Position numbers: made by a program. From the NCBI RefSeq assembly GCF_003334355.1, contig NZ_QOWP01000029.1: DNA of 46,566 bases. One strand, written 5' to 3'. Origin of the DNA: Escherichia coli. Its GTDB lineage: Bacteria > Pseudomonadota > Gammaproteobacteria > Enterobacterales > Enterobacteriaceae. Positions within the stretch are counted from its first letter, which is position 1; every line of letters begins with the position of its first letter. This document shows, one piece after another, positions 19,531 through 22,500 of this stretch.

Positions 19531-22500
19531 TAGCAATGCGAATATTTGTCTACGGCAGTTTACGCCACAAACAAGGCAACAGTCACTGGATGACCAATGC
19601 CCAGTTACTGGGCGATTTCAGTATCGATAACTACCAGTTGTATAGCCTGGGCCACTATCCAGGCGCAGTTCCGGGGAACGGAACAGTACACGGTGAAGTT
19701 TATCGTATTGACAACGCCACGCTGGCCGAACTTGATGCCTTGCGCACCAGGGGCGGTGAATACGCGCGCCAGTTGATTCAGACGCCGTACGGGAGTGCAT
19801 GGATGTACGTTTATCAACGACCCGTCGATGGATTAAAGCTAATTGAAAGCGGCGACTGGTTAGACAGGGATAAGTAATAATAAAAGCACGCCACCTTCGG
19901 GTGGCGTTGTTTTATGCGATGTATCTCGCGATTTTTTTTTGTAACTTTTCCATCTTTTGCTTTTCTCTCCGAGCCGCTTTCCATATCTGCAATCGCATAA
20001 AAAACTCTGCTGGCGTTCACAAATGTGCAGGGGTAAAACGGGGGCACGCTTTGAACGGTGAGTATGAGTGAGGTCGGCTAACTTCCAGCAAGTGGCTATG
20101 AACAGCAAAATGGTGGTCGGGTTTGCTTGTTCTTACCGTTCAAGCCTTGCAACCGCTGAGAATAATGATGGTGGAATAGAGAGTTTATTTATCGCGGGCA
20201 TAAAAAAACCCTTACTAACCGAAGCCCGGCGTTCAGGGTTATTGCGCTAGAAGAACTTATTTATTCTTTGCGCGCTCGAAGGAAGCAACGATTTCAGCTT
20301 TAGCGGCTTCTGCGTTTTCCCAACCTTCAACTTTCACCCACTTGCCTTTTTCGAGGTCTTTGTAGTGCTCGAAGAAGTGAGCGATCTGCGCTTTCAGCAG
20401 CTCTGGCAGATCGTTAACGTCTTTAATGTGATCGTATTCTTTGCTCAGCTTTGTGTGCGGAACAGCAATCAGTTTCGCATCTTCACCGGCTTCGTCGGTC
20501 ATTTTCAGAACGCCAACCGGACGGCAACGGATCACAGAACCCGGCTGCAGCGGGTACGGAGTCGGGACCAGTACGTCAACCGGGTCACCGTCCAGAGACA
20601 GGGTGTGGTTGATGTAACCGTAGTTGCACGGATAGAACATCGCGGTGGACATGAAGCGGTCAACGAACAGTGCGCCGCTCTCTTTGTCGATTTCGTATTT
20701 GATCGGATCTGCGTTAGCCGGGATCTCAATAACAACGTAGATGTCTTCCGGCAGATCTTTACCCGCAGGGACGTTGAGTAAGCTCATGTCTGTTTCCTTT
20801 AAAAATATGTGGCAAACAAGTGCCGAGTATTATAGCCAACTCGCGCCGAATGTCTTCGCTTGTTTTCGTCTTCATTTTCCTTTTTCACCAGTTTTAAGAC
20901 GGTATACAGAGCAGGAAAATCCATAACCGTAGCCGCATTTTTCATAGTGAGATGAAAGCGATTACAAACTTGTGATTAACGTTTTATTTACTTTTTTGAA
21001 GTGTGATGTAACGCAATCCGTTACATAACGAATTGTCTATAGTTTTTTCGCGAACATCTTTTCACCAATAATAATTACCCCGACGAGGACAACCCTATGT
21101 GGAAACGCTTACTTGTAGTCTCTGCAGTCTCGGCAGCCATGTCGTCTATGGCGTTGGCCGCTCCATTAACCGTAGGATTTTCGCAGGTCGGATCGGAATC
21201 TGGCTGGCGCGCCGCAGAAACCAATGTGGCGAAAAGTGAGGCCGAAAAACGCGGAATTACGCTGAAAATTGCCGATGGTCAGCAAAAGCAGGAAAACCAG
21301 ATTAAAGCGGTACGTTCCTTCGTCGCGCAAGGGGTGGATGCGATCTTTATCGCTCCGGTGGTTGCGACTGGTTGGGAACCGGTATTAAAAGAGGCGAAAG
21401 ATGCCGAAATCCCGGTCTTCTTGCTCGATCGTTCTATTGATGTGAAAGACAAATCTCTCTATATGACCACCGTCACTGCCGACAACATTCTCGAAGGCAA
21501 GTTGATTGGTGACTGGCTGGTAAAAGAAGTGAATGGCAAACCATGCAACGTGGTGGAGCTGCAGGGCACTGTTGGGGCCAGCGTCGCCATTGACCGTAAG
21601 AAAGGCTTTGCCGAAGCCATTAAGAATGCGCCAAATATCAAAATTATCCGCTCGCAGTCAGGTGACTTCACCCGCAGTAAAGGCAAAGAAGTCATGGAGA
21701 GCTTTATCAAAGCGGAAAACAACGGCAAAAACATCTGCATGGTTTACGCCCATAACGACGACATGGTGATTGGTGCAATTCAGGCAATTAAAGAAGCGGG
21801 CCTGAAACCAGGCAAAGATATTCTGACAGGTTCTATCGACGGCGTACCGGATATCTACAAAGCGATGATTGATGGCGAAGCGAACGCCAGTGTTGAACTG
21901 ACGCCGAATATGGCAGGTCCCGCCTTCGACGCGCTGGAGAAATACAAAAAAGACGGCACCATGCCTGAAAAGCTGACGCTGACCAAATCCACCCTTTATC
22001 TGCCTGATACCGCAAAAGAAGAGTTAGAGAAGAAGAAAAATATGGGGTATTGAGGGTTGCTATGCCTGATGCCGATTCGTAGGCCGGATAAGGCGCTCGC
22101 GCCGCATCCGGCGGTGGTGCGCTGAAGCCTGATGCGACGCTTACCGCGTCTTATCATGCCTACTGGGAGCACGCTTTACACCGGGGGAAACCATGACGAC
22201 TAACCAACACCAGGAGATCCTCCGCACCGAAGGATTAAGTAAATTTTTCCCCGGCGTCAAAGCGTTAGACAACGTTGATTTCAGCCTGCGCCGCGGCGAA
22301 ATCATGGCGCTGCTCGGTGAAAACGGGGCAGGAAAATCAACGCTAATCAAAGCATTAACTGGTGTATACCACGCCGATCGCGGCACCATCTGGCTGGAAG
22401 GCCAGGCTATCTCACCGAAAAATACCGCCCATGCACAACAACTCGGTATCGGCACCGTCTATCAGGAAGTAAACCTGCTACCCAATATGTCGGTCGCTGA

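What the first reader, a model, noticed from the sequence alone, without database searches (positions are those of the whole stretch)
19916..20256. ytfP-ppa intergenic region has no chpS-chpB toxin-antitoxin pair; 341 bp of non-coding sequence instead
From memory, K-12 carries the chpS/chpB (ChpBI/ChpBK) toxin-antitoxin module between ytfP and ppa. Here there are only 341 bp between the ytfP terminator and the ppa stop. No translation of this region resembles a PemK/MazF-type toxin or its antitoxin; it holds only a weak 60-codon ORF (20068..20250), a 9-T homopolymer run (about 19932-19940) and a 9-bp inverted repeat pair (ttatgcgat at 19910-19918, atcgcataa at 20000-20008). This may be the ancestral, module-free state of the locus, or a remnant after loss. 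A small RNA or a leader from a divergent promoter is not excluded.
Basis: partly seen in the sequence, partly recalled or inferred. Interest (0 to 1): 0.45.

Follow-up and report, generated by a model that had tools for sequence, protein, structure and literature searches.

The report
Decayed chpB toxin gene relic
The gap between ytfP and ppa in this E. coli is not an untouched empty site but the worn-down leftover of the chpS-chpB toxin-antitoxin pair, an ordinary old gene remnant shared by about 43% of sequenced E. coli.

Summary
The window is E. coli. The ytfP (19536-19877, +) to ppa (20257-20787, -) interval lacks chpS-chpB, which K-12 carries there. It is not an ancestral empty site. Window 20050-20179 is a decayed piece of chpB (codons 7-47 plus the last two codons and the stop). 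It is about 73-75% identical to K-12 chpB and carries in-frame stops and two 1-nt deletions. Its substitutions are spread evenly over codon positions. A 312-bp deletion removed the operator, all of chpS and the start of chpB. A 201-bp deletion between TGGTGG repeats removed codons 48-114. The same junctions occur in the E. albertii type strain, so the loss is old. Of 5,426 complete E. coli genomes, 2,322 carry this relic (BL21(DE3) identically), 3,100 carry chpSB, and 188 carry esiB, nearly always beside the relic. The three-state polymorphism was published in 2013; I found no description of the relic, and annotation left it blank in all sampled genomes but one. One oddity: the relic keeps a 100-nt plus-strand hairpin better than random decay predicts. 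Ordinary overall; low interest.

The parts
19536..19877 (+). ytfP (gamma-glutamylcyclotransferase family), the left flank
   Evidence: ORF. Annotated as ytfP in matching genomes.
19888..19913 (+). ytfP intrinsic terminator: an 8-bp stem CGCCACC/GGTGGCG with a UUCG loop, then a U-rich tail
   Evidence: Terminator scan. Folds at -24.1 kcal/mol, z = -4.9. The hairpin is conserved across all Enterobacteriaceae loci examined, whether empty, chpSB-bearing or relic-bearing.
19916..19940 (+). Second small hairpin GCGAtgtatcTCGC followed by the 9-T run; a weak tandem terminator-like site
   Evidence: The T-run varies in length (7-9 T) among E. coli relic alleles and is interrupted in K-12 and E. albertii.
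19878..20040 (+). Spacer homologous to the K-12 ytfP-chpS spacer; it ends at the left deletion junction ...GGGGTAAAACG
   Evidence: 85% identity to K-12 (137 of 161 aligned positions). The same spacer precedes chpS in other genera.
20041..20049 (+). Nine bases, GGGGCACGC, at the left junction. They are either filler or strongly diverged chpB codons 4-6.
   Evidence: The K-12 equivalent removed is 312 bp: the operator palindrome GAGTTATACTTTGTATAACT, the ribosome-binding site, all of chpS, and chpB nt 1-18.
20050..20179 (+). chpB relic: codons 7-47, then the last two codons and the stop (GGTGGAATAG). It has in-frame stops at TGA 20059-20061 and TAA 20079-20081 and two 1-nt deletions.
   Evidence: Alignments. 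72.8% identity to K-12 chpB, with differences of 12/9/13 by codon position. tblastn E = 5e-6.
20169..20174 (+). TGGTGG, the single copy left of two direct repeats (chpB nt 140 and nt 341). The 201 bp (67 codons) between them were deleted.
   Evidence: alignment.
20048..20146 (+). Long imperfect hairpin inside the relic, inherited from the chpB coding sequence
   Evidence: -40.8 kcal/mol. It is retained beyond random-decay simulations, and only on the plus strand.
20068..20250 (+). 60-codon GTG ORF; spurious
   Evidence: It is out of frame with the chpB relic. It is cut to 30 codons by a 1-nt insertion in the diverged E. coli relic alleles (strains Z247, 13P477T, A37), and its start codon is GTA in E. 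albertii.
20180..20256 (.). Spacer homologous to the K-12 chpB-ppa spacer. It contains the ppa terminator-like hairpin on the minus strand (arms 20207-20212 and 20235-20240; the A-run 20202-20208 gives the U-tract).
   Evidence: 94.8% identity to K-12. Fold gives a weak stem with z = -0.1. The consensus terminator scan did not call it, so the terminator role is inferred from position and conservation.
20257..20787 (-). ppa (inorganic diphosphatase), the right flank

Best explanation
The interval is the decayed relic of a chpS-chpB (ChpBI/ChpBK, MazF/PemK-type) toxin-antitoxin cassette that once sat between the ytfP and ppa terminators.

Shown: two deletions inactivated it. One (312 bp in K-12 terms) removed the operator and -10 region, all of chpS and the first six codons of chpB. 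The other (201 bp, between TGGTGG direct repeats, which points to slippage or illegitimate recombination) removed chpB codons 48-114. The roughly 130 nt of chpB left between them have drifted, gaining stop codons and two 1-nt deletions, with substitutions in all codon positions.

Shown: the event is old. The identical junctions occur in E. coli, in the E. albertii type strain and in another Escherichia lineage.

Inferred: the interval no longer encodes or regulates anything of its own. Its working parts are the ytfP terminator(s) at its left end and the ppa terminator at its right end. In some strains esiB was later inserted, or kept, between two copies of the ytfP terminator hairpin, next to the same relic.
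For: 1. K-12 has chpS and chpB at this site.
2. Window 20050-20174 aligns to chpB codons 7-47 at 72.8-75.4% identity, and GGTGGAATAG matches the end of chpB.
3. tblastn with ChpB gives E = 5e-6, with a frame shift in the match.
4. Relic-versus-chpB differences fall 12/9/13 on codon positions 1/2/3. Functional orthologues show 5/4/21 and 5/4/25.
5. The relic is closest to Escherichia chpB (about 73%) and further from chpB of other genera (50-60%).
6. The junctions are identical in all relic alleles, including E. albertii NBRC 107761.
7. Relic divergence between E. coli and E. albertii (12.8%) equals local 4-fold-site divergence (ytfP 13.0%, ppa 12.7%). Within E. coli it is 8% against 7-12% in the flanks. 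So the sequence evolves at a neutral-like rate.
8. Truly empty sites in Citrobacter, Klebsiella, Enterobacter, Kluyvera and Salmonella are 100-170 bp. chpSB sits at the same site in five other genus-level lineages.
9. Citrobacter sedlakii has an independent chpB relic with different junctions.
10. There is no Rfam match and no promoter-like site in the interval.
11. The ORF is not conserved.
12. Counts among 5,426 genomes: relic 2,322, chpSB 3,100, esiB 188, of which 185 are contiguous with the relic.
Against: The relic keeps a roughly 100-nt plus-strand hairpin at -40.8 kcal/mol. Random placement of its own substitutions on the intact consensus gives -27.3 +/- 3.6, and about 0.1% of simulations reach the observed value. 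The signal is strand-specific. This is unexpected for pure drift.

A neutral 130-nt relic and its 160-nt upstream spacer surviving since before the E. coli / E. albertii relic copies split is somewhat surprising, given deletion bias in bacteria.

No transcript data were available, so lack of expression is inferred, not shown.
Confidence: 0.88

Rival explanations
1. This is an ancestral, never-occupied ytfP-ppa spacer, and chpSB was inserted later in the K-12 lineage.
For: Many Enterobacteriaceae have no chpSB between ytfP and ppa.
Against: The interval contains recognisable chpB sequence, the chpSB upstream spacer and the chpB stop region. Real empty sites are 100-170 bp and lack all of this.
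Confidence: 0.02
2. The chpB fragment has been taken over as a structured plus-strand RNA element. It could be a stabilising or insulating structure at the 3' end of tamA-tamB-ytfP read-through transcripts, or a small RNA. Selection would keep its hairpin.
For: The hairpin at 20048-20146 is -40.8 kcal/mol, with z = -3.4 against shuffles. It is retained against random-decay simulations (p about 0.001), and only on the plus strand and largely through G-U pairs. Three pairs change on both sides between intact and relic sequences. All E. coli relic alleles stay at -38 to -42 kcal/mol.
Against: The hairpin was noticed post hoc. All relic alleles share one lineage, so the covariation amounts to a few events. 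In E. albertii three pairs are broken and the signal is weak (-30.1, p about 0.06). The overall substitution rate equals the neutral rate. There is no promoter-like site, no Rfam match, and no U-tract after the hairpin. The hairpin in intact chpB is mostly a by-product of the protein sequence. Strand-biased transitions or template switching could give the same picture.
Confidence: 0.08
3. The hairpin retention is mutational, not selected. Quasi-palindrome template switching during replication re-perfects the arms, and strand-biased C-to-T and A-to-G transitions then leave G-U-compatible mismatches.
For: Template switching is documented in E. coli and is argued to create and maintain RNA hairpins (PMC7202029; bioRxiv 10.1101/2021.04.15.439925). 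Transitions in the relic are biased: C-to-T plus A-to-G total 7, against 3 for G-to-A plus T-to-C.
Against: The direct test was inconclusive. The relic's 5' arm is no closer to the reverse complement of the ancestral 3' arm (score 6) than to its own ancestral arm (score 8). The Watson-Crick-only signal is weak (z = -2.0) and the minus strand is not significant.
Confidence: 0.1
4. The 60-codon ORF at 20068-20250 encodes a small protein.
For: It is an open frame with a GTG start.
Against: It is out of frame with chpB and runs through the ppa terminator. It is truncated by a frameshift in the diverged E. coli relic alleles (Z247, 13P477T, A37), and its start codon is lost in E. albertii. No genome sampled annotates it.
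Confidence: 0.01

Closest known systems
chpS-chpB (ChpBI/ChpBK) type II toxin-antitoxin module of E. coli K-12 (MazF/PemK family; Masuda et al. 1993, as cited in PMC7167474)
   Same: Same chromosomal site between ytfP and ppa. The upstream spacer is homologous (85%). About 125 nt are homologous to chpB codons 7-47, and the chpB stop region and the downstream spacer (95%) are also present.
   Different: There is no chpS, no operator or promoter, and no intact toxin frame. Two deletions (312 bp and 201 bp), stop codons and frameshifts have destroyed it. It is not a member of the family, only its remains.
Three-state ytfP-ppa locus described with EsiB (Pastorello et al. 2013, mBio, PMC3735183)
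   Same: That paper reports chpBS in 53%, esiB in 15% and neither in 32% of 47 genomes, and short direct repeats flanking esiB. This window is their 'neither' state. My counts from 5,426 genomes are 57%, 3.5% and about 39%.
   Different: The passage retrieved treats the 'neither' state as absence. It does not mention that both the 'neither' and the esiB alleles carry a chpB relic. It also does not mention that esiB almost never occurs without the relic (185 of 188).
Decay of the chromosomal ccdO157 toxin-antitoxin system in E. coli (Mine et al. 2009, Genetics, PMC2666520, cited in PMC7167474; my summary of its content is from memory)
   Same: A chromosomal type II toxin-antitoxin module that is intact in some strains and degraded in others of the same species.
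   Different: It is a different family (CcdAB versus MazEF-like). Here a single old deletion allele is shared across Escherichia species, rather than many independent inactivating mutations.

Membership tests
chpSB / MazEF-type type II toxin-antitoxin module | Intact toxin ORF (about 116 aa, PemK/MazF fold) | tested here: not met
   Only codons 7-47 and the last two codons remain. There are stops at 20059-20061 and 20079-20081 and two 1-nt deletions.
chpSB / MazEF-type type II toxin-antitoxin module | Antitoxin gene (chpS, AbrB/SpoVT-type) immediately upstream and overlapping the toxin gene | tested here: not met
   tblastn with ChpS reported no hit at E <= 1e-3 in the identical-sequence locus L002 or in the other relic-allele loci L003, L005 and L006. 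The alignment shows that all of chpS is deleted.
chpSB / MazEF-type type II toxin-antitoxin module | Autoregulated promoter with an operator palindrome (GAGTTATACTTTGTATAACT, conserved in all chpSB loci examined) | tested here: not met
   The palindrome and ribosome-binding site lie inside the 312-bp deletion.
chpSB / MazEF-type type II toxin-antitoxin module | Sequence homology to chpB at the syntenic position | tested here: met
   72.8-75.4% nucleotide identity over about 125 nt. It is closest to Escherichia chpB.
Pseudogene relic evolving neutrally | Disabling lesions, plus loss of the third-codon-position bias in substitutions | tested here: met
   Differences fall 12/9/13 by codon position, against 5/4/21 for functional orthologues.
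Pseudogene relic evolving neutrally | Substitution rate equal to that of neighbouring synonymous sites | tested here: met
   Between E. coli and E. albertii the relic differs by 12.8%, against 13.0% and 12.7% at 4-fold sites of ytfP and ppa. Within E. coli it is 8% against 7-12%. tamB is higher (34%), so the local clock is uncertain.
Ancestral empty ytfP-ppa site | Only the two convergent terminators lie between the genes (100-170 bp, as in Citrobacter, Klebsiella, Enterobacter, Kluyvera and S. enterica diarizonae) | tested here: not met
   379 bp, containing the chpSB spacer and a chpB fragment.
Small RNA or cis-regulatory RNA | Match to a described RNA family | tested here: not met
   Rfam at E <= 1 gave only a chance-level S15 hit inside ppa. 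The gathering-threshold scan found nothing in the interval.
Small RNA or cis-regulatory RNA | Own promoter and terminator | tested here: not met
   There is no sigma-70-like site in 19700-20900 on the plus strand, and no U-tract follows the hairpin. The consensus scan is only a weak test.
Small RNA or cis-regulatory RNA | Conserved secondary structure supported by covariation | tested here: inconclusive
   Hairpin retention has p of about 0.001 against random decay, on the plus strand only. Three pairs change on both sides. But there are few independent events, and E. albertii breaks three pairs.
Small RNA or cis-regulatory RNA | A detectable transcript | not testable with these tools
   No expression data were available. 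The supplements of one UPEC sRNA study did not mention the locus.

The most novel reading that the evidence does not exclude
The toxin-gene fragment is not inert. Its roughly 100-nt plus-strand hairpin (20048-20146) would have been kept by selection as a structured RNA, for example a 3'-end stabiliser or insulator for tamAB-ytfP transcripts, or a small RNA. That would explain why a relic older than the E. coli / E. albertii relic split has not been erased. It could also explain why the intact and decayed alleles coexist across Escherichia species.
Probability: 0.08. Interest if true: 0.55.

Novelty: new member of a known kind. Interest (0 to 1): 0.2.

Why it matters
The practical value is mostly bookkeeping. 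About 43% of complete E. coli genomes, BL21(DE3) among them, lack ChpBK/ChpBI, and that absence is a loss, not an ancestral state. Annotation leaves the relic blank in nearly every sampled genome.

For toxin-antitoxin biology it adds a clean example of chromosomal module decay. One old deletion allele is shared across Escherichia species. It coexists with intact alleles, and Citrobacter sedlakii shows a second, independent decay at the same site.

It also fixes part of the order of events at the esiB vaccine-antigen locus: esiB occurs only on the decayed background.

None of this changes current understanding of how these systems work.

Tried and rejected
1. Ancestral empty site: rejected, because chpB homology lies inside the interval.
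2. The 60-codon ORF as a gene: rejected, because it is out of frame with chpB and is broken in other alleles.
3. The 9-bp inverted repeat as a structural element: rejected. Its coordinates were off, it is near chance expectation, and its arms vary without compensation across haplotypes.
4. Known RNA family: none found.
5. Promoter in the interval: none found by the consensus scan.
6. The whole interval as a structured RNA: z = -1.9 on the plus strand and -0.7 on the minus strand, which is unremarkable.
7. Foreign origin of the relic: rejected, because it is closest to Escherichia chpB and not to chpB of other genera.
8. Template switching as the origin of the hairpin arms: inconclusive.
9. The hairpin as a selected feature of intact chpB: only weak support (synonymous recoding z = -1.9).
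10. Literature searches for a described chpB relic or for a small RNA at ytfP-ppa found nothing relevant. The search on 'ppa' was swamped by matches to journal identifiers.
11. Strain HH45 looked like an intermediate allele. Its C-rich low-complexity filler suggests an assembly artefact or a mosaic, so I did not use it.

Full report
**Observation.**
The window is Escherichia coli. tamB runs from 15754 to 19533 (+), ytfP from 19536 to 19877 (+), ppa from 20257 to 20787 (-) and ytfQ from 21097 to 22053 (+). The same genes are annotated in matching RefSeq genomes. The two stop codons are 379 bp apart.

The 9-T run is at 19932-19940, and the 60-codon GTG ORF at 20068-20250 exists. The 9-bp inverted repeat exists too, but at 19912-19920 and 19992-20000, not at the stated coordinates.

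**What the interval is.**
I aligned the window with K-12 and with other alleles.
- Window 19878-20040 is homologous to the K-12 ytfP-chpS spacer (85% identity).
- Window 20180-20256 is homologous to the K-12 chpB-ppa spacer (95% identity).
- Window 20050-20174 aligns to chpB codons 7-47 at 72.8-75.4% identity.
- The following GGTGGAATAG matches the last codons and stop of chpB.

In the chpB frame the fragment has stops at 20059-20061 (TGA) and 20079-20081 (TAA), plus two 1-nt deletions. A tblastn search with ChpB finds residues 15-42 (E = 5e-6 in this small search space) and continues in a shifted frame.

Two deletions explain the structure.
- The left one removes 312 bp in K-12 terms: the conserved operator palindrome GAGTTATACTTTGTATAACT, the ribosome-binding site, all of chpS, and chpB nt 1-18. 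It leaves nine bases, GGGGCACGC, at the junction.
- The right one removes exactly 201 bp (67 codons) between two TGGTGG direct repeats at chpB nt 140 and nt 341. Deletion between short direct repeats is typical of slippage or illegitimate recombination (inference).

**It is a decaying pseudogene.**
Differences between the relic and K-12 chpB fall 12/9/13 on codon positions 1/2/3. Functional chpB orthologues from Enterobacter and Lelliottia differ 5/4/21 and 5/4/25. The relic is closest to Escherichia chpB (about 73%) and further from chpB of other genera (50-60%), so it decayed in place from the Escherichia gene.

Its rate looks neutral. The E. coli and E. albertii relics differ by 12.8%, against 13.0% and 12.7% at 4-fold sites of ytfP and ppa. 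Within E. coli the figure is 8%, against 7-12% in the flanks.

The 60-codon ORF is out of frame with chpB and runs through the ppa terminator. It is cut short by a 1-nt insertion in the diverged E. coli relic alleles (strains Z247, 13P477T and A37) and has no start codon in E. albertii. The T-run is the tail of a second small hairpin after the strong ytfP terminator, and its length varies among alleles. The inverted repeat is not maintained across haplotypes.

**Age and distribution.**
The same two junctions are present in the diverged E. coli alleles, in the esiB-bearing allele, in E. albertii NBRC 107761, and in a further Escherichia lineage (locus L010). The deletions therefore happened once and are old. 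Relic-to-intact divergence (27%) is well above relic-to-relic divergence between species (13%).

Four other Escherichia lineages keep intact chpSB. Either the intact and decayed alleles have coexisted for a long time, or they have moved between species by recombination. I could not separate these two histories.

Counts among 5,426 complete E. coli genomes:
- 2,322 carry the relic. Of these, 1,528 are at least 99% identical to the window, and BL21(DE3) is identical. Nothing was annotated under the match in 29 of the 30 sampled genomes; the exception is HH45.
- 3,100 carry chpSB.
- 188 carry esiB, and 185 of those have it contiguous with the relic.

**Wider context.**
In other Enterobacteriaceae the ytfP-ppa gap is often only 100-170 bp of back-to-back terminators (Citrobacter, Klebsiella, Enterobacter, Kluyvera, S. 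enterica diarizonae). These are the truly empty sites. chpSB sits at exactly this site in Lelliottia, Enterobacter asburiae, Pseudocitrobacter, Kluyvera and an unnamed isolate, at 64-78% protein identity, with the same upstream spacer and operator.

Citrobacter sedlakii has an independent chpB relic that keeps a different part of the gene (residues 63-76 and the C-terminus). Other species carry unrelated inserts of 0.5 to more than 2.7 kb. The site is a recurrent gain-and-loss spot.

**Literature.**
Pastorello et al. 2013 (PMC3735183) already described the three states of this locus: chpBS 53%, esiB 15%, neither 32% of 47 genomes. They also described the direct repeats around esiB. The retrieved passage does not mention a chpB relic, and neither did the other toxin-antitoxin papers I checked. 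Decay of chromosomal toxin-antitoxin modules is a known phenomenon (ccdO157, cited in PMC7167474).

**One unexplained point.**
Window 20048-20146 folds into a roughly 100-nt plus-strand hairpin of -40.8 kcal/mol.
- Intact Escherichia chpB has the same hairpin (-46 to -50 kcal/mol). There it is mostly a by-product of the protein sequence: synonymous recodings average -37.4, z = -1.9.
- Placing the relic's own 26 substitutions and 2 deletions at random on the intact consensus gives -27.3 +/- 3.6. Only about 0.1% of simulations reach the observed value.
- The excess is strand-specific. The minus strand gives z = -1.2, and the plus strand without G-U pairs gives z = -2.0.
- Nine substitutions create pairs that the ancestor lacked, and two pairs changed on both sides.
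The E. albertii copy breaks three pairs (-30.1, p about 0.06). The overall rate is neutral. No promoter, U-tract or Rfam match is present.
- A template-switch origin was tested and was inconclusive.

I treat the hairpin as a low-probability hint of re-use as an RNA element, not as a finding.

**Verdict.**
The interval is an old, widespread and mostly unannotated relic of the chpSB module, lying between functional terminators. The presence/absence polymorphism itself is already published. The relic, its junctions and its cross-species age are small additions. Interest is low.

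Noticed in passing
L003 (E. coli A37) 1340-1370 and 3000-3030; esiB at 1483-2955: A third allele of the locus. esiB (a Sel1-repeat protein that binds secretory IgA) lies between two copies of the ytfP terminator hairpin, with the same chpB relic downstream. 188 of 5,426 genomes have esiB, and in 185 it is contiguous with the relic. The locus states and the repeats are published (PMC3735183); I did not see the link to the relic described.
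   Followed up: partly
window 20048-20146: The chpB relic keeps a roughly 100-nt plus-strand hairpin (-40.8 kcal/mol) far better than random placement of its substitutions predicts (-27.3 +/- 3.6, p about 0.001). The minus strand shows no such excess.
   Followed up: partly
L033 (Citrobacter sedlakii NBRC 105722) 3340-3686: An independent chpB relic with different junctions. It keeps residues 63-76 and the C-terminal region and has lost chpS and the 5' half. So chpSB has decayed at least twice at this site.
   Followed up: partly
L004 (E. coli HH45) about 1400-1500: This allele has about 100 nt of C-rich low-complexity sequence where chpS should be. That is followed by 101 nt identical to K-12 chpB, after which it switches to the relic sequence. 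The genome annotation calls it a partial PemK/MazF pseudogene. It looks like an assembly artefact or a mosaic of the two alleles.
   Followed up: no
L013-L086, between ytfP and ppa: The ytfP-ppa gap is a variable spot across Enterobacteriaceae. It is 100-170 bp in many species, and chpSB sits there in five lineages. Unrelated inserts of 0.5 to more than 2.7 kb occur in others, such as S. enterica arizonae, Citrobacter youngae, Enterobacter cloacae, Silvania and Pluralibacter. E. cloacae DSM 26481 (L035 5100-5168) has a ChpS-like AbrB-type fragment next to ppa. I did not characterise the inserts.
   Followed up: no
window 19536-19877 (ytfP): ytfP has 0 differences at 45-46 four-fold sites between the window and E. 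coli strains Z247, 13P477T and A37, while tamB, ppa and ytfQ show 7-13%. Against E. albertii, ytfP shows 13% where tamB shows 34%. This could be a recent recombination or sweep, a hidden constraint, or small-sample noise.
   Followed up: no
H1, E. coli FDAARGOS_1250 (NZ_CP069571.1 477168-479196): In this genome the otherwise identical ytfP-ppa segment is split by an IS1A insertion.
   Followed up: no
window 9445-9567, 12919-12976, 13056-13098, 22082-22160, 28323-28400, 38449-38564: Rfam gathering-level matches elsewhere in the window: ES239 sRNA, STnc450, ES036, two naRNA4 elements and the magnesium riboswitch. All are expected E. coli features.
   Followed up: no
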